Origin: Thermoanaerobaculia bacterium
GTDB lineage: Bacteria; Acidobacteriota; Thermoanaerobaculia; Multivoradales; J023
Length of the DNA: 64,000 nt
Assembly (NCBI GenBank): GCA_036397835.1
Contig: DASWIG010000100.1
Location: 67-64,066 of the forward strand
Direction of reading: 5' to 3'
The number at the start of each line of letters is the position of its first letter. The first letter of the stretch is position 1. Position numbers and translations under genes: made by a program. Shown here piece after piece: positions 261-54,940 of this stretch. Below the pieces are notes generated by a model. The model made no database searches and was not told the DNA's origin. It saw only the letters and a program-made list of their open reading frames with translations.

Positions 261-536
261 GTGACCAAGGACTTCAACGTCATCATCGAGCGGGACACTG
301 AAGGCTACTACGTCGCCTCGGTGCCGGCCCTTCGCGGCTGCCATACCCAGGCCAGATCACTCGATACGCTCATGGAGCGGGTCCGAGAGGTTGTCGAGCT
401 CTGCCTCGATGACGAGGACGAAGAGACGGAACCCCTCGAGCTCGTCGGCGTTCAGAGACTCAGCTTTGCGGGGGCGCCAGAGGAGGAGCCGGAAGCGAGG
501 ATCAGGGGAGCGTCGGAGGGCTTGTGCAGTGCCTGA
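261..536 (+). CDS. hicB: HicB-like (UPF0150) type II antitoxin; no hicA partner is visible
   Basis: DFNVIIERDTEGYYVASVPALRGCHTQARSLDTLMERVREVVELCLDD matches the HicB/UPF0150 N-terminal fold; acidic tail. Confidence 0.55.
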   Translation: MTKDFNVIIERDTEGYYVASVPALRGCHTQARSLDTLMERVREVVELCLDDEDEETEPLELVGVQRLSFAGAPEEEPEARIRGASEGLCSA

Positions 537-559
537 TGATACCTCACCCAACTGCACGA

Positions 560-824
560 GCGGCTCCCCGTCGGGGACGCGCAAAGGTTGCGGCAGGTAG
601 GGATCGAGCTCCCCGGGCTCGAAGCGGCACAGCCCGATCGAGTGCCAGAACGCGCCCGCCGTCTCGCCGCCCAGGCGGTAGCGTCCGTCGGGGGTGAAGG
701 CGACCCAGCCTTCAGGCAATCCGGCGAGGATCATCAGGCAGCGGCAGGTGGCGACGGCCCAGACGCGGATGGTGCCGTCTTGGGAGGCGGAGGCGAGGAG
801 CCGGCCGCCCGGGCTGAACGCCAC
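560..824 (-). pseudogene. WD40-repeat gene remnant (C-terminal repeats only)
   Basis: Translation FSPGGRLLASASQDGTIRVWAV...FTPDGRY...AFWHSIG has WD40 signatures, but there is no plausible N-terminus and it runs into the hicB-like ORF. Confidence 0.4.
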
Positions 825-879
825 GCTCCAAACCCCGGCCCCATGACCCTCGAGCGTGCCCTGCGCGGCGCCCGTGGAC

Positions 880-1100
880 GTTCGACCCGGGCGCCAGCGC
901 CCTCTCGCAGCTCGCAGACCCTGGCGACGCGGGCAAGGAAATCGTCGCGCGTTTCACCGTCGAAGCGGACATCGTCGAGGTCAAGCCTAGGCTGGGGGAG
1001 GCGCAACTGCGCTGGTTCGCCGAACGTCTCGAGCGCTTTCGGGACGAAGGATGGCTGCGCATCGCAGCGGTCCATCACAACGTCGTCAGCCGTGGTGGTC
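880..1100 (+). pseudogene. Metallophosphoesterase (calcineurin-like) gene remnant
   Basis: Frame gives ...EAQLRWFAERLERFRDEGWLRIAAVHHNVV (typical metallophosphatase C-terminal block) with no start and no N-terminal metal-binding motifs. Confidence 0.3.
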
Positions 1101-1221
1101 CCGGTCGTGGCGTTCGGCCATCGTCGAGGGGCTCGGCAACGTCCGGCGCTTCCCCGGCGGACGCGCCCTGGGGTGGCTGCTCTTCTTCGTGTTCAGATTG
1201 CGCTTGCCGCTTTCCATCACG

Positions 1222-1660
1222 GATGACGGCAAGCTACGGCTCGGCTTGCCGTTATAGCACGATTTTGACGGCAAGCACGAGATCTGCTTGACGATACCGA
1301 CGGATAATTACGGCAAGCATACACTGTGATTGACGGTATTCATCGCAGTGAACGGCAAGCACGAGCTATGCTTGTCGATATCTATCGTAGATTACGTCAA
1401 GCGCAAGATGTGCTTGACGGTATCTTTAGCCGGTAGTGTCTAGCACAAGTTGTGCTTGCCGATACCTTCTTCTGATAGCGTCAAGCACAAGCTGTGCTTG
1501 CCGGTTTCTATAGCAGATAGCGTCAAGTGCAGTTTGTGCTTGCCGGTATTCTTAGCCGGTAGCGGCAAGCACGATCAATGCTTGCTGGTATTTTTCTCTG
1601 ATAACGGCAAGCACAATCGATGCTTGCCGTCATCCCGCGCCGATGACGGCAAGCAGACTA
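1222..1660. repeat. Tandem array of about 11 units of a ~42-bp repeat, each carrying an imperfect palindrome GGCAAGCAC-N6-GTGCTTGCC plus a semi-conserved ~19-bp linker (GGTATxCTTAGCCGGTAGC)
   Basis: Seen directly: units centred near 1238, 1280, 1322, 1363, 1407, 1450, 1492, 1534, 1575, 1617, 1652; GC about 50% against 70% in the flanks. Confidence 0.85.
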
Positions 1661-2344
1661 CTAGGACGACTTCTTCGGCCGCCTTCTCTTGCCTCCCATC
1701 TCGCGGATCTCTTTCTCTCGGCTCGCGCGGCCTTTCCGGTAGTAGTACTCGAGGGAGCGCGCGCGGTTGCCGCAGACGGTGGAGCAGAACAAGCGCTTGC
1801 GCGAGCCGCTGGCGACGAGGAAATACAGAGCGCATTCCTTGGCGGCGCACTGACGCACGTGGGGATGCCCGGTGATCGCCACCAGGGTCTCGAGCGCCGA
1901 GTAGGCGACGGGCCAGAGCATGCGGTCGAGGGCGTCGTCGTCTCCGCTCCAGCCCACGGCCACTCCCGAGTCCTGGGGCACGAGACGCAGGACCGGCATC
2001 GCCCCGGCGACGGCCGCGTTGACGGTCCCGAGGTCCGTGTCGTCCGGATTCTGGTCCTTGAGGGTGGCGAGGAAGATGCGGGCCAGGGCGTAGCGCAGCT
2101 TCGCGGCCCTCGTGTAGACCGCTTCCGCGTCCTCGGGACGCTCGGCCGCCAGCCGCCGCAGCCGCTCGGCCTCGTTGGTCGACAGGACGCCGGCCTGCTG
2201 TGCCCAGGTCACCAGCTCGGCGTAGCTCTTGGCGCCCTGCTGGCGATTGTTGTCCCGAGCGCCGGCGGTATTGACGAAGGCGACGCAAAGCGCGCCGGCG
2301 AGCTCCAGTTGGGGGTCCCGGGGCGGAGGCTTTCTCCTTGCCAT
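1661..2344 (-). CDS. ABATE-domain / CGNR zinc-finger protein
   Basis: C-terminal CAAKECALYFLVASGSRKRLFCSTVCGNRARSLEYY matches the CGNR zinc finger (C-x-x-C ... C-G-N-R); ATG at 2344. Confidence 0.75.
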   Translation of the reverse strand: MARRKPPPRDPQLELAGALCVAFVNTAGARDNNRQQGAKSYAELVTWAQQAGVLSTNEAERLRRLAAERPEDAEAVYTRAAKLRYALARIFLATLKDQNPDDTDLGTVNAAVAGAMPVLRLVPQDSGVAVGWSGDDDALDRMLWPVAYSALETLVAITGHPHVRQCAAKECALYFLVASGSRKRLFCSTVCGNRARSLEYYYRKGRASREKEIREMGGKRRRPKKSS

Positions 2345-2404: not shown

Positions 2405-2890
2405 CTACCGGTATCGCCCCGCGGGAAACCTGTGGTGACCGCCGTAACGGCGCCAGAGCCCGTCGCCGTCGTAGTAGTCGACGAGGTCGTACATCAGCCG
2501 CTCGACGCGGTTGAAGTCACGGCGCACGGGGTGGACGGCGTGGAGATAGGTCATGGCGTGCCGGGCGTTGTTGAAAGCCTGGAACAGACGGATGAACTCC
2601 GGTTCGGTGTGGTACGGGGCCCGGTAACGACGTTCCACCTCGCGATGGAATTGACGCGCTCGCTGGTCGAGCGTGTGCAGCCGGCGCAGAGCGTCGTCTT
2701 CCGCGCGCGTGTTGTGGTGGGAGGAGCGTTCGGCGGCGACGTGGACGCGGTGGGCCGCGGTTTCGAGCTCGTGCGCGAGGATTGTCACTCGCCCCATCTG
2801 GCCAGGCGTCGGATGATTCGCCCAAACGGCTGTGGTCGCCACCAGGGCACCAAGAAGGGCTATCGGGAAAACGTGCTTGGTGTGCTTCAT
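2405..2890 (-). CDS. Hypothetical small secreted protein
   Basis: ATG start; N-terminal signal peptide MKHTKHVFPIALLGALVATTAVWA; His/Arg-rich mature part. Confidence 0.5.
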   Translation of the reverse strand: MKHTKHVFPIALLGALVATTAVWANHPTPGQMGRVTILAHELETAAHRVHVAAERSSHHNTRAEDDALRRLHTLDQRARQFHREVERRYRAPYHTEPEFIRLFQAFNNARHAMTYLHAVHPVRRDFNRVERLMYDLVDYYDGDGLWRRYGGHHRFPAGRYR

Positions 2891-23169: not shown

Positions 23170-23463
23170 TCATAGCTTTTTGAGCCAGTGGGCTGGACGT
23201 TTTAGGTGCGGAGGAAGCCTGGTCCAGGCATCACCTCGGGCGGCGTCGATCTGCAGCTGCAGAAGGTTCTTTACTTCGTGGAGATCCGCGCCGCTCAGGT
23301 CCGCGTCGCTGAGACCTACACCGTGTAGGTTCGCCCCGATCAGGTTTGTCCGAATCAGGTTCGCGTCCGTGAGGGCTGCCAACTTGAGGTCTGCGTCGCT
23401 GAGGTTCGCGCTGCTAAGGTTCGGTTCGCGAGTCTGCAAAGTAGGGGGACAAGCCTTGGACAC
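23170..23463 (-). CDS. Pentapeptide-repeat protein (short); 5' end lies inside the tandem-repeat array, so the start is uncertain
   Basis: [45 protein letters not shown] is an A(D/N)LXX pentapeptide run. Confidence 0.5.
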
Positions 23464-23812
23464 CTACTTCGCGAGTTTGCATAGTAGGGGGACAAGCCTT
23501 GTACACCTACTTCGCGAGTTTGCATAATAGGGGGGCAAGCCTTGTACCGCCACTCTGCGGACGACGATCTAACCGGGACAAGCTCTGAAGCGGTCAGGCG
23601 CGAATTTGCAGAGCAGGAGGGCAAGCGATGTACTCCTGCACTTCGCGGGGTAGGGGTACAAGCGACGTACCCCCTACTCCCGCACTTCGCAGAGTAGGGG
23701 TACAAGCGAAGTACACCTACTTCCGCACTTCGCTGAGTAGGGGTACAAGCGATGTACACCTACTCCTGCACTTCGCAGAGTAGGGGTACAAGCGACGTAC
23801 CCCTACTCCCGA
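23428..23812. repeat. Tandem array of about 8 units of a ~43-bp repeat containing hairpin GTAGGGGTAC-N7-GTACCCCTAC (variant GTAGGGGGACAAGCCTTGTACACCTAC), interrupted by ~90 bp at 23555-23640
   Basis: Seen directly; lower GC than the flanks; the last unit supplies the stop codon of the FG-GAP gene and the first unit overlaps the pentapeptide ORF start. Confidence 0.8.
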
Positions 23813-26418
23813 AATCCGCGGGGTGGTCGAAACGGCGGTGTCCTCGTCTTCCCGGGTGCAGCCGGGACGCCTGCGCTCCCAGTACCGAGATAGGCGTCGA
23901 GCTCGCGGAAGGCGTCAGCGGGCTCCGGTTGGCCGTCCCACCGCTCCCAGAAGCGCGCCAGGGGCGACGGCTCGGTGTGCATGCGCCGGGCCACGTCGCC
24001 CTCGGCGACCGCTCCCGCGGGCTTCCAGTCCTCGCCGAGGGCCTGGCGCGCGGCCCTGAGCAGGTCCGCGGCGGCACCGTCGTCCCCCCGTTTCCAGGCC
24101 AGGTAGCCGCGCAGGAAGAAACCGCCGGCCGCCCGCGGGTTGGTGCGGCAGGCCCACTCGAAACGCTGGTCGGCGAGCGCGTCCTCGCCCTCGAGCAGCG
24201 CGATCTCGCCCAACGCCAGGAGCGAGCCGGTCTCCTCCTTGTTGACTTCGTGGGCGCGCTCGAGCGCGGCCTCGGCGGCGTCGAGCTCCGCCCGCGAGGT
24301 GGCGGTCAGGGCGCGCAGCACGCCCCATTGCTTGTGGCCGCGGTGGCTCAGCGGGTTGGCGCGGCGCAGACGATCGAGCTCGGCCAGGGCCTCGTCGGGC
24401 CGGCCGAGCTCCGCCAGGCAGTTGGCCAGGTAGTAGCGCGAGTCCTCGTGCTCGGGGTTCAGGGCCAGGGCGCGACGGAAGAGCTCGGCGGCGCGGCCGA
24501 CGTCGCCGTCGACCTTCATGGCGTCCATGGCGGCCCTTTGCGTCGACCAGAACTCCATCAGGCGCCGGCGCTCGTCGAGCGTCGCGAGGGCGGGCGCTGT
24601 AACCCTGGCGGAGATCCGGCGCGGCTCAGGGTCGCCCTCGGTGAGCTCCCACACGGCGCCGGCTGCGAGGTCCGCGAAGACCTGCGACTCGCCGCCGAGC
24701 CACCGCACCTCGAGACGCGAGACGTGCTCGGCGGTCCCCAGACCGAAATGCACCGTGCCGCTGCTCTGCGACAGGTAGGACGCGCCGCCGACTGAACGCC
24801 GCAGCTCGACGCCATCGTCCAGGGTGGCGACGAGGACGGCGCCCTCGCCCGGGCCGCGCCGCGCGTCGCGCAGCCGCACCGCGAGCCAGCGGCCCTGCTC
24901 CATGTCGTTGCGCAGCAGCTTGACGCCTTCGTAGAGGTGGTAGACGGCCACGTCGAGGTCGCCGTCGCCGTCGTAGTCGGCCACCGCCAGGCCGCGGCCC
25001 ACGTGGGGCGCGGCAAAGACCTCGGCGAGCGGCGCAAGGTCGTGGAAGTACTCGCCGCGCCGGTTCCACAGCAGCATCGCCGGCTGCGGCTTGAGGCCCC
25101 TGGGCTGCCGGTCGTCCTCCAGGGTGCTGCCGTTGGCGACCACCAGGTCGAGCCAGCCGTCGCTGTCGAAGTCGGCGAACTCGGTGCCCCAGCCCACGAA
25201 TTGGAGCGCGATCTGGCCGAGCCCCAGGGGCACCGCCTGGTCGGTGAAGGAGAGGCGCACCGGGGCGCCGGCGGGCACGGCGCGGCGCAGGTCGGCGAGG
25301 CGTGAGTCGTAAAGGGCGTTCTCCTGGGCGAGCCAGTGGGTGATGAAGAGGTCGTCGTCGCCGTCGCGGTTCCAGTCGCCGGCGGCCAGCCCCATGGCGC
25401 CGCGGTAGTCGGCCACCCAGGCTTGCAGGCCGGCGTCCTCGAAGGTGTCGCCGCGGTTCAGGAAGAAGGCGTTGTCGGAGATGTCGTTGGCCACGTAGAG
25501 GTCGAGGCGGCCGTCGTCGTCGAAGTCGTGCCAGAGGGCCGAGAGGCTGCGGCCCTGCGGGTTCTGCACGCCGTAGAGCAGGGCCACCTCGGTGAACGCG
25601 CCCGTGCCGTCGTTCTCGAAGAGCAGGTTGCGCTCGGGCTCGAAGGAGGCGGGGTTGAGGGTGTAGGGCACGGCGGCGCCGTATTGCTGGGAGAGGCTGC
25701 GCCGGTCGCCGGCGTCCTCCACGTACTGCACGTAGCCGCACACGTAGAGGTCGAGGTCGAGGTCGTTGTCGAAGTCGCCCCAGGCGGCGCCGGCCCAGTA
25801 GCCGTCGGGCGCGACGAAGCGCTCGTCGCGTTCGAGCGCGCCTTCACGGTTGTGGAAGAGGAGGAGGCTGCGGTAGCCGGTCACCACCAGGTCGAGCCAG
25901 CCGTCGCCGTCGTAGTCGCCCCACGACGCGGCCATCCCGGCGACGCGGATCTCCGGGAAGCCCGCGACCTTGAGGAACGTCCCGTCGCCGCGGTTCTCGT
26001 AGAGCTCCGACGGCGCCCACTGCGACCGCGGTAGGGTCAGGGCGCCGCCGGCGGCGACCAGGAAGATGTCGTCGTCGCCGTCGTTGTCGTAGTCGCCCCA
26101 GGCGAGGCCGGCGCCCATGTCCTCGGGAAGCTGCGACGAGCGCGCGCCGGTGAAGGTCACGAAGCCGTCGAGCCCCGCCGCCGCGGTGACGTCGGTGAAG
26201 CGGGGCGCGGGCGCGTCCGCCGGCAGGTCGCGCGAGAGCTTCGCGGTGACGTCGTCGAGGGCCTCGCCGGGCCGCCGCACCTCGGGCCGGGTCCGGAGGT
26301 AGATCACCACGCCGGCCGCCGCCGCCACGAGCGCCACGGCGGCCAGCACGGCGACGACCAGGCGCAGCCGCTGGCGGCGGGTGAGGCGTCGGCGGGCGGG
26401 GCGCAGGTCGTTGCCCAT
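23803..26418 (-). CDS. FG-GAP/ASPIC-UnbV repeat protein with C-terminal TPR domain; N-terminal TM anchor
   Basis: Repeated GDYDNDGDDDIF / WGDYDGDGWLDL / GDFDNDLDLDLY / HDFDDDGRLDLYVAN / DYDGDGDLDVAV FG-GAP Ca-binding loops; TM LRLVVAVLAAVALVAAAAGVVIY. Confidence 0.75.
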   Translation of the reverse strand: MGNDLRPARRRLTRRQRLRLVVAVLAAVALVAAAAGVVIYLRTRPEVRRPGEALDDVTAKLSRDLPADAPAPRFTDVTAAAGLDGFVTFTGARSSQLPEDMGAGLAWGDYDNDGDDDIFLVAAGGALTLPRSQWAPSELYENRGDGTFLKVAGFPEIRVAGMAASWGDYDGDGWLDLVVTGYRSLLLFHNREGALERDERFVAPDGYWAGAAWGDFDNDLDLDLYVCGYVQYVEDAGDRRSLSQQYGAAVPYTLNPASFEPERNLLFENDGTGAFTEVALLYGVQNPQGRSLSALWHDFDDDGRLDLYVANDISDNAFFLNRGDTFEDAGLQAWVADYRGAMGLAAGDWNRDGDDDLFITHWLAQENALYDSRLADLRRAVPAGAPVRLSFTDQAVPLGLGQIALQFVGWGTEFADFDSDGWLDLVVANGSTLEDDRQPRGLKPQPAMLLWNRRGEYFHDLAPLAEVFAAPHVGRGLAVADYDGDGDLDVAVYHLYEGVKLLRNDMEQGRWLAVRLRDARRGPGEGAVLVATLDDGVELRRSVGGASYLSQSSGTVHFGLGTAEHVSRLEVRWLGGESQVFADLAAGAVWELTEGDPEPRRISARVTAPALATLDERRRLMEFWSTQRAAMDAMKVDGDVGRAAELFRRALALNPEHEDSRYYLANCLAELGRPDEALAELDRLRRANPLSHRGHKQWGVLRALTATSRAELDAAEAALERAHEVNKEETGSLLALGEIALLEGEDALADQRFEWACRTNPRAAGGFFLRGYLAWKRGDDGAAADLLRAARQALGEDWKPAGAVAEGDVARRMHTEPSPLARFWERWDGQPEPADAFRELDAYLGTGSAGVPAAPGKTRTPPFRPPRGFRE

Positions 26419-48987: not shown

Positions 48988-50964
48988 ATGGCGACTACCG
49001 TCGAATCCCCGCAGGTGGAAACCCACCAGTTCCAGGCCGAGACGCGAAAGCTGCTCGACCTGATGATCCACTCGCTCTACACGCAGAAGGAGATCTTCCT
49101 GCGCGAGCTCGTCTCGAACGCGTCGGACGCCTGCGACCGCCTGCGTTTCGAGGCCTTGTCGAGCCCCGAGCTGATGGCGGGCGACGACCCCCTCGAGATC
49201 CACCTCGAAGGCGACAAGGAGGCCCGCACGCTGACGATCAGCGACAACGGCATCGGCATGAGCCGCGAGGAGGTGATCGCGAACATCGGCACCATCGCCA
49301 AGTCGGGCAGCCAGGAGCTGATGGCCAGGCTGCGCGAGGCGCCGCCGACCACGGCCGAGCTCCACGAGCTCATCGGCCAGTTCGGCGTCGGCTTCTACTC
49401 GGCGTTCATGGCCGCCGACAAGCTCACCCTGGTGACCCGCCGCGCCGGCGAGGAGAGCGCCACCCGCTGGGAGTCGACGGGCGACGGCACCTACACCCTG
49501 GCGTCGGCCCAGCGCCCCGGCCGCGGCACCTCCATCACCCTGCACCTGAAGCCCGCGGACTCGGACGCCGGCATCGAGGACTACACCGAGCGCTGGACCG
49601 TCTCCCGCATCGTCAAGCGCTATTCCGACTTCGTGGCCTACCCGATCATCTTCCACGACACCAGGGAAGTGACGAAGGAGGAGAAGGACGAGGAGGGCAG
49701 AACGAAGGAGGGCGAGACCGAGACCGTCATCGAGAAGGTCACCCTCAACTCGATGAAGCCGATCTGGACCCGTCCGGCCGTGGAGGTCACCGAGGAGGAC
49801 TACGCCGAGTTCTACAAGCACATCTCCCACGACTGGAACCCGCCGATGCGGACGATGCGCTTCGAGGCCGAGGGGCGCATCGAGTACCAGGTGCTGTGCT
49901 TCATCCCCTCGGAGGCGTCCGAGGAGCTCTACTACCACGCCTTCGAGTACGGCCTGCAGCTCTACGTGCGGCGGGTCAAGATCATGGACCGTTGCGAGGA
50001 CCTGGTGCCGCGCTACCTGCGCTTCGTGCGCGGCGTCGTCGACTCCGAGGACCTGCCGCTGAACATCTCGCGCCAGCGGCTCCAGGAAGACCGGCACATC
50101 GCCCAGATCAGGAAGTGGATCACCCGCAAGGTCCTCGAGACCTTGCAGCAGGTGAAGAGCGAGGACGCCGAGAAGTACCTGGGGTTCTGGGAGCACTTCG
50201 GCCGCGCCATGAAGGAGGGCCTGACCGCCGACTTCGACAACAAGGAGAAGCTCCTGCCGCTGATGCTCTGGCAGTCCTCGGCCGACCCCGAGAAGCTGAC
50301 CACCCTCGCCGAGTACAAGGAGCGCATGCAGGAGGGCCAGGAGCACGTCTACTACCTCTCGGGCGAGTCGCGCGCCGCCGTCGACAGCTCGCCCCACCTC
50401 GAGGCCTTCAAGGCCAAGGGCTACGAGGTCCTCTACCTGACCGACCCGGTCGACGAGCTCGTGGTGCAGTACCTGCACGAGTACGACGACAAGCGTCTGA
50501 AGTCGGTCGGCAAGGGCGAGGTCGACCTCGAGGCCAAGGACGAGGAGGAGAAGAAGGAGCGCAAGAAGCAGCTCGAGGCCAAGCAGGAGAAGCACAAGGA
50601 CCTGCTGGACCTGATCCAGAAGAAGCTCGACCGCGAGATCAAGTGGGTGCGCTTCTCCGGGCGGCTGACGGCCTCGCCGGCGTGCCTGGTGGGCGCCGAG
50701 CACGACTACAGCCCGCAGCTCGAGAAGCTGCTGATGAAGGGCAAGGGCGGCGGCCCCAAGCAGCGCTGGATCCTCGAGCTCAACCCGGACCACGAGCTGC
50801 TCGTCAAGATGGAGGCGCGCTACGCGGCCGACAAGGAGGACCCGCTCCTCGGCGACTACGCCGAGCTCCTGCTCGGCTACGCCCAGGTCGCCCAGGGCTC
50901 GGAGCTCACCGATCGGGTGATCTTCAACCAGGCCCTGGCCAAGGTCATGGTCGAGCGGCTGTAG
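48988..50964 (+). CDS. htpG: Molecular chaperone HtpG (Hsp90)
   Basis: ETHQFQAETRKLLDLMIHSLYTQKEIFLRELVSNASDA...IGQFGVGFYSAFM...; full length 658 aa. Confidence 0.95.
   Translation: MATTVESPQVETHQFQAETRKLLDLMIHSLYTQKEIFLRELVSNASDACDRLRFEALSSPELMAGDDPLEIHLEGDKEARTLTISDNGIGMSREEVIANIGTIAKSGSQELMARLREAPPTTAELHELIGQFGVGFYSAFMAADKLTLVTRRAGEESATRWESTGDGTYTLASAQRPGRGTSITLHLKPADSDAGIEDYTERWTVSRIVKRYSDFVAYPIIFHDTREVTKEEKDEEGRTKEGETETVIEKVTLNSMKPIWTRPAVEVTEEDYAEFYKHISHDWNPPMRTMRFEAEGRIEYQVLCFIPSEASEELYYHAFEYGLQLYVRRVKIMDRCEDLVPRYLRFVRGVVDSEDLPLNISRQRLQEDRHIAQIRKWITRKVLETLQQVKSEDAEKYLGFWEHFGRAMKEGLTADFDNKEKLLPLMLWQSSADPEKLTTLAEYKERMQEGQEHVYYLSGESRAAVDSSPHLEAFKAKGYEVLYLTDPVDELVVQYLHEYDDKRLKSVGKGEVDLEAKDEEEKKERKKQLEAKQEKHKDLLDLIQKKLDREIKWVRFSGRLTASPACLVGAEHDYSPQLEKLLMKGKGGGPKQRWILELNPDHELLVKMEARYAADKEDPLLGDYAELLLGYAQVAQGSELTDRVIFNQALAKVMVERL
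50908..50962 (+). repeat. Left copy of the ~55-bp direct repeat (htpG 3' terminus); right copy at 56422-56476
   Basis: accgatcgggtgatcttcaaccaggccctggccaaggtcatggtcgagcggctgt versus accgatccggcgatcttcaaccaggccctggccaaggtcatggtccagcggctgt (3 mismatches). Confidence 0.85.
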
Positions 50965-51002
50965 ACGCGCTCAGCGCAGACGGCCTCGAGGCGGGGCGCG
51001 AC

Positions 51003-51190
51003 AATGACCATTGAGACGCGATGAACGCCCTTTCATCATGGGCTAACGTAAGTTGGCGCATGATGAGTGACGAGAAATCGCGGCTCAATGACCATTGAGA
51101 CGCGCCGGACGTGTCGTCCATCATGGGCCAATATCGTTGGCGCATGATGAACGGGGAGAAAACGCGCCTCAACGGCCATTGAAGCGTCCC
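51003..51190. repeat. About 2.2 tandem copies of an 84-bp repeat (CAATGACCATTGAGACGCG...TCATCATGGGC...TTGGCGCATGATGA), then a GC hairpin GGGCAGGCACGGGGGCCTGCCC
   Basis: Seen directly; each unit has an internal inverted repeat CATCATG/CATGATG; low GC. Confidence 0.75.
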
Positions 51191-51248: not shown

Positions 51249-51351
51249 TTGATCCTGATGCCTGTGATGCGCTATACTGGCGTCTGATGAGCATCAGATA
51301 GACGCATAGGACGCACAGACGACGCACCAAGACGCACAGACGACGCACCAA
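51249..51351 (+). promoter_or_regulatory. Sigma70-like promoter (TTGATC-18-TATACT), then a perfect 16-bp palindrome TCTGATGAGCATCAGA and two 21-bp direct repeats GACGCACAGACGACGCACCAA, just before the SD AAGGAG of the RHH gene
   Basis: Seen directly at 51249-51278 (promoter), 51283-51298 (palindrome), 51310-51351 (DRs). Confidence 0.5.
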
Positions 51352-51361
51352 GGAGACCGCC

Positions 51362-51574
51362 ATGCCCCGACTGACCATCGAGTTCCCCGAAGAGGGCGAC
51401 AGGATCCTGAGCAAGCTGGCCAAGGACGAAGACACCACCAAGCGCGAGGTGATCCGCCGCGCTCTGGCACTCTACAACTACATCCACAAGGAAGGCGTGA
51501 GGATGGGCGGCGGCGAACGCCGCCTGTCGATCACCGACAAGGACTCCAAGGTCGTCAAGGACATCATCATCTGA
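51362..51574 (+). CDS. Ribbon-helix-helix (CopG/ParD-like) DNA-binding protein
   Basis: MPRLTIEFPEEGDRILSKLAKDEDTTKREVIRRALALYNY is the beta-alpha-alpha RHH pattern; ATG after AAGGAG. Confidence 0.6.
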   Translation: MPRLTIEFPEEGDRILSKLAKDEDTTKREVIRRALALYNYIHKEGVRMGGGERRLSITDKDSKVVKDIII

Positions 51575-51614: not shown

Positions 51615-52040
51615 ATGTCGGAGCGAGGAGACGACGCCCCCAAGGTCCTCGAAGAGGACGACGCCGAAGGCCTGATCTTCGTACGGGACTTCCCGCCGAT
51701 CAGGACGCCGGACCCCGAGTCGTATCTGGAGTGGTCGGGCGTCCGGCAGATGACGATCGTGCTCGTGATCATCTGCGTCGCGGTCGTGGGCTTCCTGGCC
51801 GCCTGGGCGTTGACCGTGCCGACGATCGAGGACGTCCGCGCCCTCGCCGGCGGCGCCTCCCCCGCTGACCCGCAGGCCGCCGCCGAGCTCCTGGACGGCC
51901 TGCGCGAGGGACACATGAGTCGGTTCCGCGACCTGTTCCAGCTCCTGGTCATGTCGGCGCTGGTGCCGCTCTTCACGCTGCTCGCCGGCTACGTCTTCGG
52001 CAAGAGCAGCAGCGAGCGACGCCGGAAGCAGGACCCGTGA
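51615..52040 (+). CDS. Small 2-TM membrane protein (hypothetical), translationally coupled to the STAND gene
   Basis: TM1 MTIVLVIICVAVVGFLAAWAL and TM2 LLVMSALVPLFTLLAGYVF; GTGA overlap with the next gene. Confidence 0.5.
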   Translation: MSERGDDAPKVLEEDDAEGLIFVRDFPPIRTPDPESYLEWSGVRQMTIVLVIICVAVVGFLAAWALTVPTIEDVRALAGGASPADPQAAAELLDGLREGHMSRFRDLFQLLVMSALVPLFTLLAGYVFGKSSSERRRKQDP

Positions 52041-54940
52041 CGCCGCGAGCCACGCTCTACGTCGGTGTGGCCGTCCCGCTGGTCGAGGTCTTTCACCTGT
52101 GGATCGCCAAGGTCCCTCGGCACGACGATCCACAGGAACAGCAGCAGGCCCTCAAGTCGTTCCCACACCGCGAGATCGGCGCCTACGCCCTTCGTCCTGC
52201 CGGCGACCCGTCCTCGGGGACAGTCCCCGCGGCTCTGGCGTTTCGCACCGCGGCGACCGTGTCGCCCGAGCGGGTGCGTGAACGGATCGAGGCGTGGAGC
52301 GCCGAGCCGCCGGAGCTCGTGGCGAGCGACTCCACGCCGATCGCGCCCCTCGACCACCGCCGCTATCTCGACGAGCTCCAGCGTGCCCTGGAGGACAAGC
52401 CGGTGCGGGTGGTCCCGCGCATCGGTCTGACGCTCCAGCACCTGCAACGCGACCGGCTGGCACTGCGGCCCGAGATGGTGGCGCTCTTCTGCCACGGCAC
52501 GGACGAGGGATGTCTGCTGCTCGAGGACGGACGCGGCACAGCCGCGGTGACGCCCGGCGATCGCGTCCTGGGTGTTCTCACGCCGCGACCGCGGGTGACC
52601 GTCCTCGCCGCCTGCTACTCGGAGGCAGTGCTGAAGCGGGCGGCCGAAGACGGCGGCCCGGATGCCGCGATCGTCTCCGTGGACTCGGAGTCGGCGATCG
52701 AGGTGACGGCCACCGCCGAATTCCAGTCGCTGTTCTACGACCTGCTGCTCCAAGGTCGAACGGTGGGCGAGGCGTTCGACGCGGCGCAATCCTTCGTCGC
52801 CAACAGTGACGTGACGGGCGACCTCGCTTTCGCCAGAACCGCGCCCAGCCAGAAGCTGCGCATCAATCCCGCGGGCAGGGACGTCCGTCTCGACGCCGCG
52901 CCGGCGACCGCCGCTGAGCTCCCGCCGGAGCTCGTGACCACGCCCCATGCCCGCTCGCCGCGCATCCGCCGCGGGCTCGACCACTTCGTGGGACGCCGGC
53001 CTGAGCTCGCGGAGGTGCTGGACGCTCTGCTGCCGCTGCCTGCCGGCGTCCGTCGGCCGGGCGCCGGCGTCCGCCGGCTGGTGACGCTGACCAAGGAAGG
53101 CGGGATCGGCAAGACGGCGCTCGCCGCCCAGGCGTCGCAGTGGGCGACGGAACGCGGTCTCTTTCCGGGAGGCGTCGTCGAGATCTCATGTGAAGAGATC
53201 CCGGGGCCGGGTCAACTCCTCTCGCGCCTGCTCGCGACGTTCGGCGTGCCCGCCGAGAGCCAGCGCGGTGACCTCTTGGAGCTGCTCGCCGGGGTACTTG
53301 GCGCTCTTTCGCCGCGGCAAGGTCGGGTGCTGCTGGTGCTCGACAACCTCGACGACCTGGTCGGGAACCAGATGCCATTGGAGACGAACCGCGAGACGCA
53401 GGCTGTATTGGAGACGGCGGTGGCCGCGGCGCCTGAGCTGCGGATGCTGGCTACCTGCCGCTGGCCCTTGGGGATGGCGGAGGAGGCGGTGGTGGCGGTG
53501 AAGCCGCTCACCGACGGCGACAGCCGCGACGTCTTCATGTCCTACGTCGAGTCGCCTCAGCACGTCCTCGAAGCTCACCAGACCTGGCCGCAGGACGACA
53601 GCCCGGTCCGACAACTGATCCGGCTCTCGGGCCGTCACCCGCAGTCGCTGCGACTCCTGGCGCGTCAGCTCGGGCGTCATGGAATGACGATTGCCAAACT
53701 GCGCGACGAGGCATACGCGGACCTCCTTCCGGTGCTGACGGATCCTTATCGCCGTGAGGACGACGACGACCGGCAGCTCAAGGTGGAGCGTTCCTACGAG
53801 CTCTCCTACCGTCATCTCAGCGCGGAAGGTCAAGTGCTCTTCGCTCGGCTGGCGCGTTTGCCCGGGGGCGTGTGGTGCGGGGAGATGCCGGAGAACGTGA
53901 TCGGGTGGCAGGAGCTTCTGGGCGAGCAGTGGAAGGCGGTCCTTGAAAAGGAGCTCGACTACTACGCGCTGGTCCACTTCGAAGCGGACCCGTCGGGGAG
54001 GACGGAAGGATTCTTCCGCATGCTGCCGGCCATGGTGGAGCTCAGCCGGAGGAAGCTGGAAGAGCGGGAGGACGAGGAATGGACCGGCCGGTGGGTCGAG
54101 TTCTGGCGGCGGCGACTGAGCCTGTGGAATCAGATGCTCTCGGGGAAGGTACCCGAAGAGATGGGAGAGCTGGATCCTGATGGACGCGCCGCGGCCGGAG
54201 GTCGCCTTCGCAGCGTGGCGGCCATGCTGTTTGCCGGCACCCAGGCCAACTGGACGTCGCTTTTCGAGCTCGCTTGCGAGAACGATCCGAAGCTTGCGAA
54301 GTGGGTCCTGCTCAAAATCGTCCCCTTCACGCAGCTCACCGGCCAGCGATTATTGCGTCGGGATCTTGCCCGGAGAGCTGTGGTGGCGCTCCGCAGCGGC
54401 AATCACGAGCCGGAGCTGGCCGCCTGTCTGGGAACTCTCGGCTACGGGCAAAGCGATCTCGGCGAGCACGAGGCGGCGCAAAAATCCTACCATGAGGCGC
54501 TCGAAATCAGGAGGCGACTGGCCGCCCAGCACCCCGCCGCTTTCGAACCCGACGTCGCGATGACGCTCAACAACCTCGGCAATGTGCAACGCGCTCTCGG
54601 CGAGCGCGAGGCGGCGCGAAAATCCTTCCATGGGGCGCTCGAAATCTATCGGCGACTGGCCGCCCAGCACCCCGCCGCTTTCGAACCCAACGTCGCGATG
54701 ACGCTCAACAACCTCGGCACTGTGCAAAGCGATCTCGGCGAGCGGGAGGCGGCGCGCGAGTGCTATGCCGAGGCTCTCGGTATCTACGCTCCGCTGGCGG
54801 AGAAGTATCCCCGAGCCTTCGTCCATAACCTCAGGATCGTCCTGCGGGGATACACGTCGGTTACTCCCGAGTCCGAGGACGATCCCTGGTGGCGGCTTTG
54901 GCGGGAGCTCACCCGTCAGCCTGAGGACGCCCCGACCTGA
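52037..54940 (+). CDS. STAND NTPase: N-terminal CHAT (caspase-like) protease domain, NB-ARC-type ATPase, C-terminal TPR array
   Basis: CHAT His/Cys dyad context ALFCHGTDEG...RVTVLAACYSEAV...AIVSVDSESAIEV; Walker A LTKEGGIGKTALAAQ; Walker B VLLVLDNLDD; TPR units ...MTLNNLGNVQRALGEREAARKSF... Confidence 0.8.
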   Translation: MTPRATLYVGVAVPLVEVFHLWIAKVPRHDDPQEQQQALKSFPHREIGAYALRPAGDPSSGTVPAALAFRTAATVSPERVRERIEAWSAEPPELVASDSTPIAPLDHRRYLDELQRALEDKPVRVVPRIGLTLQHLQRDRLALRPEMVALFCHGTDEGCLLLEDGRGTAAVTPGDRVLGVLTPRPRVTVLAACYSEAVLKRAAEDGGPDAAIVSVDSESAIEVTATAEFQSLFYDLLLQGRTVGEAFDAAQSFVANSDVTGDLAFARTAPSQKLRINPAGRDVRLDAAPATAAELPPELVTTPHARSPRIRRGLDHFVGRRPELAEVLDALLPLPAGVRRPGAGVRRLVTLTKEGGIGKTALAAQASQWATERGLFPGGVVEISCEEIPGPGQLLSRLLATFGVPAESQRGDLLELLAGVLGALSPRQGRVLLVLDNLDDLVGNQMPLETNRETQAVLETAVAAAPELRMLATCRWPLGMAEEAVVAVKPLTDGDSRDVFMSYVESPQHVLEAHQTWPQDDSPVRQLIRLSGRHPQSLRLLARQLGRHGMTIAKLRDEAYADLLPVLTDPYRREDDDDRQLKVERSYELSYRHLSAEGQVLFARLARLPGGVWCGEMPENVIGWQELLGEQWKAVLEKELDYYALVHFEADPSGRTEGFFRMLPAMVELSRRKLEEREDEEWTGRWVEFWRRRLSLWNQMLSGKVPEEMGELDPDGRAAAGGRLRSVAAMLFAGTQANWTSLFELACENDPKLAKWVLLKIVPFTQLTGQRLLRRDLARRAVVALRSGNHEPELAACLGTLGYGQSDLGEHEAAQKSYHEALEIRRRLAAQHPAAFEPDVAMTLNNLGNVQRALGEREAARKSFHGALEIYRRLAAQHPAAFEPNVAMTLNNLGTVQSDLGEREAARECYAEALGIYAPLAEKYPRAFVHNLRIVLRGYTSVTPESEDDPWWRLWRELTRQPEDAPT
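54470..54745 (+). repeat. Near-identical (about 92%) 138-bp tandem duplication inside the TPR-coding region of the STAND gene
   Basis: 54470-54607 versus 54608-54745 align base-for-base with about 10 substitutions (EAAQKSYHEALEIRRRLAAQHPAAFEPDVAMTLNNLGNVQRALGER / EAARKSFHGALEIYRRLAAQHPAAFEPNVAMTLNNLGTVQSDLGER). Confidence 0.85.

What the first reader, a model, noticed from the sequence alone, without database searches (positions are those of the whole stretch)
1222..1660. Array of about 11 hairpin-bearing 42-bp tandem repeats at the 3' end of a CGNR zinc-finger gene
The array shows regular 42-bp periodicity, with a GGCAAGCAC-N6-GTGCTTGCC palindrome plus a conserved linker in each unit, and GC about 50% against 70% in the flanks. 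It is not a CRISPR: the 'spacers' are about 19 bp, mutually similar, and there are no cas genes. Candidate roles are a REP/BIME-like element, a multi-site array for a DNA-binding protein (the adjacent CGNR/ABATE protein is a nucleic-acid-binding candidate), a transcribed hairpin-repeat RNA, or a hypervariable minisatellite. 42 bp equals 14 codons and the + frame 1450-1660 reads as a 14-aa repeat (..GKH.RCLP..), but the codon usage is atypical, so coding is unlikely.
Basis: seen in the sequence. Interest (0 to 1): 0.65.

Follow-up and report, generated by a model that had tools for sequence, protein, structure and literature searches.

The report
Zinc-finger gene with private palindrome array
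A small gene for an uncharacterised zinc-finger protein (CGNR/ABATE family) is followed, right after its stop codon, by eleven evenly spaced palindromes, and the same gene-plus-array pair recurs in eleven distant relatives with a different palindrome each time, which suggests the array is the protein's own binding target.

Summary
The array is real. It spans window 1199-1657, about 11 units in exact 42-bp phase with no indels, at 51% GC against 70% in the flanks. Each unit holds two inverted 8-9-bp half sites (CGGCAAGCA-N7-TGCTTGCCG). It starts 3 nt after the stop of the CGNR/ABATE gene (1661-2344, minus strand).

It is not a CRISPR, not coding, not in Rfam, and I found no dispersed copies.

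The main result is comparative. All 11 CGNR lineages I could inspect at 44% identity or more to the window protein carry a 42-43-bp palindrome array of 4-11 units, starting 0-50 nt after the stop codon. All sit in unrelated genomic contexts. The half site differs by lineage (GRTCRRGC or AACCGG types), but the geometry stays the same. Four relatives at 27-40% identity have no array.

DNA homology between relatives begins at the start codon and ends inside the array. Strain-level SNPs avoid the half sites. I found no sign of RNA-stem selection.

Best reading (inferred, not shown): a self-contained cassette in which a dimeric zinc-finger protein binds its own helically phased duplex-DNA site array. 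What that complex is for is unknown. I found no published description of it.

The parts
1661..2344 (-). Gene for a 227-aa ABATE + CGNR zinc-finger protein. It belongs to a subfamily with an N-terminal MARKKPPPRGPQLELAG arm. In-frame stop TAG at 1661-1663, followed by a second TAG at 1658-1660.
   Evidence: ORF. Pfam PF07336 and PF11706. AlphaFold2 model with pLDDT 92.4, whose only significant PDB relative is 3H0N. An identical protein occurs on 10 metagenome contigs and is named CGNR zinc finger protein [Thermoanaerobaculia bacterium].
1199..1657 (.). The tandem array: 459 bp, about 11 units of exactly 42 bp, no indels, 51% GC. Unit consensus on the + strand: cGCtGATaACGGCAAGCACAAgcTgTGCTTGcCGgTATCtat.
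   Evidence: Symmetry centres fall every 21 bp.
1642..1657 (.). The arm nearest the gene (GATGACGGCAAGCAGA on the + strand; half site GGCAAGCAG at 1648-1656). It begins 3 nt after the stop codon. With 1621-1634 it forms a perfect 14-bp inverted repeat.
   Evidence: inverted repeat I16: arms 1621-1634 and 1642-1655, 100% complementary.
1606..1628 (.). The best-preserved palindrome, GGCAAGCAC-AATCG-ATGCTTGCC (1 mismatch to the consensus). The others in the same phase start at 1228 (degenerate), 1270, 1312, 1354, 1396, 1438, 1480, 1522 and 1564.
1199..1209 (.). The half site furthest from the gene (TGCGCTTGCCG). It marks the end of the array; nothing beyond it is shared with related loci.
   Evidence: (families D2/D3).

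Best explanation
The CGNR/ABATE gene (1661-2344, minus strand) and the array (1199-1657) form one two-part cassette. The array is the protein's own multi-site nucleic-acid target, most likely read as duplex DNA.

Each 42-bp unit carries two inverted 8-9-bp half sites separated by 7-10 bp. That arrangement suits the homodimer reported for this fold. Because 42 bp is four helical turns (21 bp per arm is two turns), all bound dimers would sit on one face of the helix. They could then assemble cooperatively into one extended nucleoprotein complex beside the gene that makes the protein.

What is shown:
- the gene-array linkage;
- the conserved geometry with lineage-specific half sites;
- the cassette boundaries;
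- constraint on the half sites.

What is inferred:
- that the protein binds the array at all;
- that the bound form is duplex DNA rather than RNA.

What is speculative is the purpose of the complex. My preferred guess is a cis-acting sink or roadblock that sets the free protein level or insulates the locus, in the manner of the P1 incA iterons or the F plasmid sopC array.
For: **1. Linkage.** Eleven of 11 lineages at 44-86% identity have a 42-43-bp palindrome array of 4-11 units beginning 0-50 nt after the stop codon:
- L077/L132
- L134/L135, L136, L137
- L138, L139, L140
- L146, L147
- L148

Four relatives at 27-40% identity have none (L141; L143-L145). Other tandem arrays of period 25 bp or more are rare in this DNA: three in the 140 kb of locus sequence scanned, one of them probably coding, plus three intergenic ones in the window.

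**2. No other shared neighbour.** Gene contexts are unrelated across loci. DNA homology between the window and L132/L077 starts at, or within 7 nt of, the start codon and ends inside the array.

**3. Sequence changes, geometry does not.** Half sites vary by lineage: GGCAAGC, GGTCAGGC, GATCAAGC, GGTCGAGC, GGTCCAGC, TAACCGG, CCAACCG. Symmetry centres are 21-21.5 bp apart in every array.

**4. The same 8-bp half site survives deep protein divergence.** P0063 and P0094 share GGTCGAGC at 47% protein identity. P0011 and P0098 share GATCAAGC at 46%. This argues for sequence-specific reading rather than mere hairpin shape.

**5. Constraint.**
- Conservation within each array peaks on the half sites.
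- Between strains the array differs by 1.7-4.1 per 100 bp against about 0.5 in the background.
- Only 2 of 18 SNPs fall in the half sites, where 7.7 would be expected (p = 0.004).

**6. No RNA-stem signature.**
- Wobble pairs are 27 on the sense strand against 40 on the antisense, alongside 99 other mismatches.
- Unit-specific compensatory changes number 3 against 2.6 expected.
- Folding energies do not consistently favour either strand.
- There is no Rfam match.

**7. The protein is a plausible binder.** It has the ABATE + treble-clef CGNR fold. The one solved member is a dimer, and its basic zinc-finger surface was proposed to bind DNA (PMC2954205).
Against: - No binding or expression data exist. 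Everything rests on comparative sequence.
- The half-site centres within a palindrome are about 16-18 bp apart (about 1.6 turns). That places the two half sites on different faces of B-DNA. This is unusual for bacterial dimers, although it is known for Gal4-type zinc clusters (my own knowledge).
- The array always lies inside the likely transcript of the gene, with no room for a terminator in between. An RNA target therefore remains possible, and JGI names these proteins 'predicted RNA-binding Zn ribbon-like protein'.
- In the window/L077/L132 clade, all wobble-type mismatches favour the antisense strand: 26 against 0. The units are not independent of one another.
- No copy of the palindrome lies upstream of any CGNR gene, so classic autoregulation at a promoter is not supported.
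- The window holds three further ~43/84-bp hairpin arrays with no CGNR gene nearby. A ~42-bp period is therefore not unique to this module in this genome.
- Only 11 lineages could be inspected.
Confidence: 0.5

Rival explanations
1. RNA version of the same idea. The array is transcribed as the 3' UTR of the CGNR mRNA and folds into a string of 4-11 hairpins. The CGNR protein binds these hairpins, for feedback control of its own mRNA, for sequestration of the protein, or as a ribonucleoprotein scaffold.
For: - The array starts 0-50 nt after the stop codon in all 11 lineages, with no intervening terminator.
- Both strands are predicted to fold very stably, at -213 and -227 kcal/mol for 465 nt.
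- The COG-derived source name is 'predicted RNA-binding Zn ribbon-like protein'.
- Zinc ribbons often bind RNA (my own knowledge).
Against: - There is no consistent strand bias in G:U tolerance: 27 sense against 40 antisense. Non-wobble mismatches dominate at 99.
- There is no excess of compensatory changes within units: 3 against 2.6 expected.
- The sense strand is the poorer folder in the window clade.
- A 42-43-bp period held across lineages with unrelated sequences has an obvious reason on duplex DNA (four helical turns) and none that I can name for RNA.
- There is no Rfam family.
Confidence: 0.2
2. The array is a structural hairpin element that the CGNR protein does not recognise. It would be a bidirectional terminator, an mRNA stabiliser or a REP/BIME-like element that simply travels with the gene.
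For: - The window has other hairpin arrays placed right after stop codons of unrelated genes: 23631-23811 after an FG-GAP/TPR gene, and 51002-51182 after the 658-aa ORF 48988-50964.
- Two units look like intrinsic terminators on the + strand.
- In about 7 of 11 loci the next gene is convergent.
Against: - The elements are not dispersed.
- Eleven of 11 linkage over protein divergence down to 44% identity, in unrelated contexts, is not expected for a generic terminator.
- An identical 8-bp half site is kept between proteins only 46-47% identical. SNPs avoid the half sites but not the centre or the linker. Both point to sequence reading, not shape.
- A single hairpin would suffice for termination.
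Confidence: 0.12
3. The array is the cis site of a mobile or selfish element: a recombination, transposition or replication site. The promoterless gene-plus-array cassette would be moved through it, by analogy with integron attC sites, iteron origins or plasmid centromeres.
For: - Homology between relatives is bounded by the start codon and the array.
- Cassettes sit in unrelated contexts, often variable ones: toxin-antitoxin genes, TIR proteins, a type IIG restriction enzyme, an integrase, STAND kinases.
- Several paralogous cassettes appear in the same assembly: GCA_024226315.1 has P0011, P0014 and P0059, and GCA_029263395.1 has P0094 and P0098. The two Thermoanaerobaculia proteins may also come from one MAG.
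Against: - No recombinase, transposase, Rep, ParA or ParB is consistently adjacent (same calls).
- The ABATE/CGNR fold has no known catalytic activity.
- I did not look for target-site duplications or empty sites.
- No relatives were found in viral contigs or phages, and plasmids hold only distant relatives without arrays.
Confidence: 0.1
4. The array is a coding repeat (14-residue units) or a degenerate CRISPR.
For: - 42 bp equals 14 codons.
- ORFs run through parts of some arrays: window 1450-1875, and L077 5597-5908 and 5677-6009.
- Gene callers placed small hypothetical ORFs there.
Against: - No frame is open across the window array.
- Three related arrays have a 43-bp period.
- The array's GC content falls well below that of the flanking coding DNA in six of the nine lineages measured.
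- The segments between the palindromic arms are only 7 nt long in the window array, far too short for CRISPR spacers.
- No cas gene appears among the called genes within 10 kb.
Confidence: 0.02

Closest known systems
F-plasmid sopB-sopC centromere (12 direct repeats of 43 bp, each with a 16-bp inverted repeat bound by SopB; PMC3177203)
   Same: A tandem array with a nearly identical period (42-43 against 43 bp) and unit count (4-11 against 12). There is one inverted-repeat site per unit. The array lies directly downstream of the gene for the presumed binding protein.
   Different: - The protein fold is unrelated: ABATE + CGNR zinc finger rather than ParB/HTH.
- No ParA/SopA partner is conserved across the loci.
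- The cassettes are on chromosome-sized contigs and occur several times per genome.
- The half sites are further apart.
- No partition function is implied.
Iteron arrays next to initiator genes, for example P1 repA with the incA iterons or the lambda O gene with its ori iterons (my own knowledge)
   Same: A cluster of about 19-22-bp-spaced sites for the product of the adjacent gene. These sites act in cis, as a titrating sink or an assembly platform.
   Different: There is no replication initiator fold. I did not look for an AT-rich unwinding region or DnaA boxes. The sites here alternate in orientation rather than being direct repeats.
Type III toxin-antitoxin systems (ToxIN, with a tandem array of 36-nt RNA repeats beside toxN; my own knowledge)
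   Same: A two-part module consisting of a protein gene plus an adjacent tandem repeat array. Such modules are often found in variable regions, and specificity is matched between protein and repeat.
   Different: - The array follows the gene rather than preceding it.
- The units are diverged (60-75% identical) simple palindromes, not near-identical pseudoknot units.
- The protein is not a ToxN/AbiQ-type endoribonuclease, and there is no PADLOC hit.
- There is no RNA-level signature.
REP/BIME elements with RAYT transposases (my own knowledge)
   Same: Intergenic imperfect palindromes of about 35 bp in alternating orientation, clustered at the 3' ends of genes.
   Different: The element is not dispersed. 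No Y1 transposase appears in the loci. It is tied to one gene family, and its sequence changes along with that gene.
Jann_2411 (PDB 3H0N), the only characterised ABATE/CGNR protein (PMC2954205)
   Same: The same two-domain fold. It is a dimer with a basic zinc-finger surface that was proposed to bind DNA.
   Different: About 15% identity. It lacks the N-terminal PPPRGPQL arm. No target site or array has been reported for it, and distant family members examined here have no array.

Membership tests
ABATE / CGNR zinc-finger protein family (PF07336 + PF11706) | Both Pfam domains score above their gathering thresholds. | tested here: met
   PF07336 scores 62.9 bits (cut-off 24.4). PF11706 scores 40.6 bits (cut-off 24).
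ABATE / CGNR zinc-finger protein family (PF07336 + PF11706) | Four zinc-binding cysteines and the CGNR motif. | tested here: met
   C166, C171, C187 and C191 are invariant across 97 sequences. The protein reads CGNRARS.
ABATE / CGNR zinc-finger protein family (PF07336 + PF11706) | The fold of PDB 3H0N. | tested here: met
   The AlphaFold2 model has pLDDT 92.4. 3H0N is the only Foldseek hit at E <= 0.001, with probability 1.00, and the top sequence hit at 1.3e-7.
CRISPR array | Near-identical repeats separated by unique spacers of about 26-72 bp. | tested here: not met
   Units are 60-75% identical to one another. The segments between the arms are 7 nt long.
CRISPR array | Adjacent cas genes. 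| tested here: not met
   None appears among the called genes within 10 kb. The rest of the window was not scanned protein by protein.
REP/BIME elements | Many dispersed intergenic copies in the same genome. | tested here: not met
   There is no other palindrome copy in the 64-kb window or in the related loci. The metagenome scan gave mostly single hits; only four of its loci showed this palindrome family: this locus, a paralogous locus, one further array and one singleton. The full genome was not available.
REP/BIME elements | An associated RAYT (Y1 transposase) in the genome. | not testable with these tools
   Only a 97-kb contig of the genome is known. None was seen in the called genes of the loci.
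Plasmid centromere of the sopC/parS type | A tandem or clustered array of inverted-repeat sites next to the gene for the binding protein. | tested here: met
Plasmid centromere of the sopC/parS type | A ParB/RHH-type centromere-binding protein and a partner NTPase (ParA/ParM/TubZ) in the same operon. | tested here: not met
   The protein is ABATE/CGNR. The nearby P-loop gene at 2975-3931 matches PF10609, the NUBPL iron-transfer P-loop NTPase family. It is present only in the window's context and not in the other ten lineages.
Type III toxin-antitoxin (ToxIN-like) | A ToxN/AbiQ-family endoribonuclease toxin. | tested here: not met
   Pfam finds only ABATE and zf-CGNR. There is no PADLOC model hit.
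Type III toxin-antitoxin (ToxIN-like) | Near-identical RNA repeats upstream of the toxin gene, separated from it by a terminator. | tested here: not met
   The array is downstream of the gene, its units are diverged, and there is no terminator between gene and array.
Integron gene cassette (ORF + attC) | A single attC site with R/L boxes at the 3' end of a promoterless ORF, with cassettes next to an intI integrase. | tested here: not met
   There are 4-11 tandem palindromes rather than one attC. No intI was called in the loci; the one integrase seen (L139) matches Phage_integrase with an Arm-DNA-binding domain, which I read as phage-type. The attC structural details were not modelled.
Any Rfam RNA family | A match at the family's gathering score. 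| tested here: not met
   There are no matches in the whole window. In a permissive search of window 1000-1900, the only matches inside the array were sub-threshold ones to eukaryotic microRNA models and one phage sRNA model.

The most novel reading that the evidence does not exclude
This would be a previously unrecognised class of autonomous two-part cassette found in Acidobacteriota (class Thermoanaerobaculia) and other uncultured bacteria with large genomes. Each cassette is an ABATE/CGNR 'reader' protein together with its own private, helically phased array of palindromic sites.

The cassettes appear to be inherited and relocated as one roughly 1.0-1.2-kb unit. They occur in several copies per genome, some with different half-site specificities. 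They are often found among toxin-antitoxin, TIR, restriction and STAND-kinase genes.

The protein-array complex would have a function of its own, such as a selfish maintenance, defence-related or chromosome-organising device, rather than being an ordinary operator. As a by-product, the arrays would give the first recognition sites ever assigned to the CGNR/ABATE family, for which my search found at least 3,493 representative clusters at E <= 0.001.
Probability: 0.4. Interest if true: 0.85.

Novelty: categorically new. Interest (0 to 1): 0.75.

Why it matters
**A first candidate target for an uncharacterised family.** The CGNR/ABATE family is large: 3,493 representative clusters at E <= 0.001. 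It is named in routine genome annotation. Yet the only functional paper I could find is a 2009 structural-genomics report that guessed at DNA binding. These arrays supply, for one clade, candidate cognate sites in many natural variants. That turns "what does this fold bind?" into a gel-shift experiment. It also offers a natural set of matched protein and site pairs from which to read a recognition code.

**An unusual architecture.** A promoterless-looking gene with 4-11 phased copies of its presumed site directly after the stop codon, repeated with different specificities in one genome, has no described counterpart outside plasmid centromeres and iteron origins. It may mark a new kind of cis-acting nucleoprotein device.

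**A practical use.** Such pairs could serve as orthogonal protein and site-array parts.

Tried and rejected
It matches no unit. N5 is correct.
- **Rfam.** Nothing at gathering score in the window. A permissive search of 1000-1900 gave only sub-threshold matches to microRNA, snoRNA and phage sRNA models.
- **Two-unit pattern scans.** In the 185,579 species genomes the pattern hit only an unrelated Gastranaerophilales contig. In viral contigs it hit nothing.
- **One-unit pattern in metagenomes.** The hits were mostly single and apparently chance, but it yielded L077, L095 and L070.
- **Tandem Repeats Finder on the diverged arrays (L136-L140).** It failed. I replaced it with a symmetry-centre scan.
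- **First compensatory-change count.** It gave a spurious excess (22 against 8.5). Two mis-centred units caused this. After removing them the excess vanished (3 against 2.6).
- **Other CGNR genes in the window.** I searched for one beside the other arrays and found none.
- **tblastn against plasmids and phages.** Plasmids gave only relatives at 33% identity or less, without arrays. Phages gave none.
- **Protein-pattern scan of viral contigs.** No relatives.
- **PADLOC and NCBIfam.** No hits.
- **Promoter scan.** No sigma-70-like site. The consensus may not apply to this phylum.
- **Specificity-determining residues.** I looked for them in the alignment. One lead emerged: the two GGTCGAGC lineages share AGD... 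and N(F/W)Q in place of NRQ near residue 34. Eleven lineages are too few to test this.
Full report

Yes.
- Tandem Repeats Finder reports periods of 42, 84 and 126 bp over 1268-1629. The repeat finder gives start-to-start spacings of exactly 42 bp.
With an N5 loop it matches nine times at up to 3 mismatches, at 1270, 1312... 1606, against 0.04 expected by chance.
- Laid out in phase, the array runs from a half site at 1199-1209 to a half site at 1648-1656. In between are a degenerate palindrome at 1228-1250 and the nine others. The total is 459 bp, about 11 units, with no insertion or deletion.
- The unit consensus is cGCtGATaACGGCAAGCACAAgcTgTGCTTGcCGgTATCtat. That is two 14-nt arms in inverted orientation separated by 7 nt, followed by a 7-nt linker. 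Symmetry centres therefore recur every 21 bp.
- GC is 0.51 in the array against 0.70 in the flank.
- The neighbouring ORF at 1661-2344 (minus strand) is a genuine ABATE + CGNR zinc-finger gene. The array begins 3 nt after its stop codon, which is followed by a second TAG.

**2. What it is not.**

- *Coding.* No reading frame is open across the array. Three related arrays have a 43-bp period.
- *CRISPR.* The units are only 60-75% identical to one another. The segments between the arms are 7 nt. No cas gene lies within 10 kb.
- *A described RNA family.* No Rfam family matches.
- *A dispersed REP family.*
  - The palindrome occurs nowhere else in the 64-kb window.
  - A two-unit pattern found no relative in one genome each of 185,579 species, nor in viral contigs.
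  - A one-unit pattern in metagenomes gave mostly single hits; only four of its loci showed this palindrome family: this locus, a second array-bearing locus (L077), a contig that starts inside an array (L095), and one isolated palindrome (L070).

**3. The same species elsewhere.**

- The identical protein is encoded on ten contigs from different metagenomes. NCBI assigns it to a Thermoanaerobaculia (Acidobacteriota) MAG.
- All contigs that span the array have the same number of units.
- Strain haplotypes differ in the array by 1.7-4.1 per 100 bp, against about 0.5 in the distant background. The gene itself shows no differences, but the contigs were retrieved by exact protein match, so that comparison is biased.
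- Of the 18 array SNPs in the most divergent haplotype, only 2 fall in the half sites, which occupy 43% of positions (p = 0.004). The remainder lie in the central spacer and the linker.

**4. Relatives: the main result.**

A protein search found a distinct clade of about 100 clusters at 44-86% identity. It is marked by an N-terminal (K/R)KxPPPRGPQLELAG arm that ordinary CGNR proteins lack. Among 1.84 billion representative proteins, only 26 score E <= 1e-30, while 3,493 score E <= 0.001. The clade is therefore a rare branch of a large family.

All eleven lineages, counting the window, have a tandem palindrome array beginning 0-50 nt after the stop codon.

| Lineage (locus) | Identity to window protein | Half site | Array |
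|---|---|---|---|
| Window | - | CGGCAAGCA | 42 bp x 11 |
| P0002 type (L077, L132, L133) | 86% | same half-site family as window | 42 bp x 10-11 |
| P0010 (L134/L135) | 58% | GGTCAGGC | 42 bp x 9-10, one unit more in L135 |
| P0011 (L136) | 59% | GATCAAGC | 42 bp x ~7 |
| P0063 (L137) | 50% | GGTCGAGC | 42 bp x ~6 |
| P0014 (L138) | 58% | TAACCGG | 42 bp x ~6 |
| P0059 (L139) | 53% | GGTCCAGC | 43 bp x ~5 |
| P0072 (L140) | 54% | AACCGG type | 42 bp x ~6 |
| P0094 (L146) | 46% | GGTCGAGC | 42 bp x 5 |
| P0098 (L147) | 44% | GATCAAGC | 43 bp x 5-6 |
| P0101, neighbouring clade (L148) | 44% | CCAACCG | 43 bp x 6 |

Symmetry centres are 21-21.5 bp apart in every case.

A relative at 40% identity (P0116, L141) and three plasmid-borne CGNR genes at 27-31% identity have no array.

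Other tandem arrays of period 25 bp or more are rare in this DNA: three in the 140 kb of locus sequence scanned, one of them probably coding, plus three intergenic ones in the window. Eleven of eleven at the same position cannot be chance.

**5. The unit of inheritance is gene plus array.**

- The genes on either side differ in every lineage.
- DNA similarity between the window and L132/L077 (about 82%) starts at, or within 7 nt of, the start codon and ends inside the array. Nothing beyond aligns.
- Several cassettes occur in the same assembly:
  - GCA_024226315.1 holds P0011, P0014 and P0059, two of them on one contig;
  - GCA_029263395.1 holds P0094 and P0098;
  - one 12-Mb contig holds P0063 and P0073;
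  - the window protein and an 86% paralogue are both named for a Thermoanaerobaculia MAG, with nearby NCBI accession numbers, so they probably share a genome.
- Neighbours often include toxin-antitoxin pairs, TIR proteins, a type IIG restriction enzyme, an integrase and STAND/TPR kinases. Such genes are common in these genomes, and I did not test for enrichment.

**6. Sequence is read, not only shape.**

- Within each array, conservation peaks on the 8-9-bp half sites.
- The centre is variable and tends to be A+T-rich.
- The same 8-bp half site is retained by proteins that are only 46-47% identical: P0063 and P0094, and P0011 and P0098.
- Five lineages share the theme GRTC-NR-GC, with variation concentrated in two positions.

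**7. DNA or RNA?**

I looked for the marks of a base-paired RNA stem and found none.
- Wobble-type mismatches number 27 on the sense strand and 40 on the antisense (p = 0.14). They are outnumbered by 99 other mismatches.
- Once two mis-centred units are removed, unit-specific compensatory double changes in the half sites number 3 against 2.6 expected.
- Predicted folding favours the antisense strand in the window clade and the sense strand in the others.

A period of 42-43 bp held across unrelated sequences equals four turns of B-DNA. That is what a lattice of dimers on one face of the helix would need. I know of no comparable reason at the RNA level.

The samples are small, and units within one array are not independent. 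I therefore treat this as moderate evidence for a duplex-DNA target.

**8. The protein.**

- The AlphaFold2 model is confident (pLDDT 92.4).
- Its only significant relative in the PDB is 3H0N (Jann_2411).
- The paper on 3H0N reports a dimer and proposes DNA binding through a basic treble-clef zinc finger. It gives no target and no experiment (PMC2954205).
- Full-text searches returned no other functional work on the family.
- There is no PADLOC or NCBIfam model for it.

**9. Most likely mechanism.**

- *Shown:* a conserved, portable cassette of an ABATE/CGNR gene and a phased palindrome array, with constrained, lineage-specific half sites.
- *Inferred:* the dimeric protein binds one palindrome per unit on duplex DNA. 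The 42-bp phasing then lets bound dimers form one cooperative complex next to the gene.
- *Speculative:* the complex acts in cis as a sink or roadblock, as iteron clusters and centromeres do. No palindrome lies upstream of any CGNR gene, so simple promoter autoregulation is unlikely.

Rivals, in order of likelihood:
1. the same pairing at the RNA level, with a 3'-UTR hairpin array;
2. a hairpin element that the protein does not recognise;
3. a cis site for mobility.

**10. Comparison with known systems.**

It works most like sopB-sopC of plasmid F (12 repeats of 43 bp, each with an inverted repeat, directly after the binding-protein gene; PMC3177203), and like iteron clusters beside initiator genes. 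It is not a member of either group. The fold is different, no partner NTPase or initiator is conserved, and the cassettes are chromosomal and present in several copies. It fails the defining tests for CRISPR, REP/BIME, type III toxin-antitoxin and integron cassettes (see the membership table).

**11. Verdict.**

The gene-array cassette appears to be undescribed.

The main limits:
- there are no binding or expression data;
- only 11 lineages were inspected;
- the full genome is unavailable;
- the biological purpose of the complex is unknown.

Noticed in passing
window 23425-23547 and 23631-23811: Two adjacent arrays with a 43-bp period (2.9 and 4.2 copies) of a different palindrome that begins GTAG and ends CTAC (GTAGGGGTAC-AAGCGAC-GTACCCCTAC). 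The second array starts at the stop codon of the 871-aa FG-GAP/ASPIC/TPR gene (23803-26418, minus strand). The first overlaps the start of a 97-aa pentapeptide-repeat ORF. There are no other copies in the window and no CGNR gene nearby. The GTAG...CTAC ends resemble REP elements recognised by RAYT transposases (my own knowledge; not tested).
   Followed up: partly
window 51002-51182 and 51310-51352: An 84-bp x 2.2 array containing a 32-bp palindrome (CATCATGGGCnAAC-N4-GTTGGCGCATGATG). It starts about 40 bp after the stop of the 658-aa ORF at 48988-50964. It is followed by two perfect 21-bp direct repeats (GACGCACAGACGACGCACCAA) just upstream of a 70-aa ribbon-helix-helix gene (51362-51574; Pfam RHH_1). 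This may be an operator for that repressor.
   Followed up: partly
window 261-1100: The stretch beyond the array looks like a gene graveyard. It holds a HicB-like antitoxin ORF (261-536, just below the Pfam cut-off) that overlaps the tail of a WD40 fragment (357-824, minus strand), and no convincing gene between 824 and 1199. In some strains the WD40 ORF is 93 aa rather than 155 aa.
   Followed up: partly
L070 2160-2225 (Ga0214471_10105127, the same sample as L005 and L077): A single near-perfect copy of the window-type palindrome (GACGTCAAGCACAAATCGTGCTTGCCGTCAG) plus one extra half site. It lies about 60 bp upstream of a frameshifted Uma2-family gene. If the contig is from the same organism, the CGNR protein may also have isolated sites outside its array.
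   Followed up: partly
L095 1-360 (Ga0055435_10040133): A third array of the CGGCAAGC-N9-GCTTGCCG type: about 9 units of 42 bp with a distinct linker. It sits at the very start of a 1.1-kb contig, so the gene expected upstream is cut off. Several contigs end inside these arrays (also L002 and L010), which suggests they break assemblies.
   Followed up: no
L135 7961-8163 and 8383-8511: The 1.8-kb stretch with no called genes after the P0010 array holds two more tandem arrays: 88 bp x 2.3 at 97% identity, and 41 bp x 3.2. I did not analyse them.
   Followed up: no
window 2405-2890 (minus strand) compared with L002, L007 and L008: The 161-aa ORF directly upstream of the CGNR gene (no Pfam hit) falls in a 657-bp segment (ORF plus intergenic region) that differs by about 6 per 100 bp between strains. 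The regional background is about 0.5, and the CGNR gene next to it shows no differences. The mosaic pattern suggests recombination between strains.
   Followed up: partly
alignment A1, window protein residues 16-40: The two lineages with the half site GGTCGAGC (P0063, P0094) share AGD and N(F/W)Q where all the others have AGA/AGE and NRQ. This may be a specificity determinant in the N-terminal part of the ABATE domain rather than in the zinc finger. There are too few lineages to test it.
   Followed up: no
window 54437-54756: A 138-bp x 2.3 tandem repeat at 90% identity. It lies inside the 967-aa NACHT/AAA-TPR (STAND-type) gene at 52037-54940 and matches its TPR region. It is an ordinary coding repeat.
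   Followed up: yes
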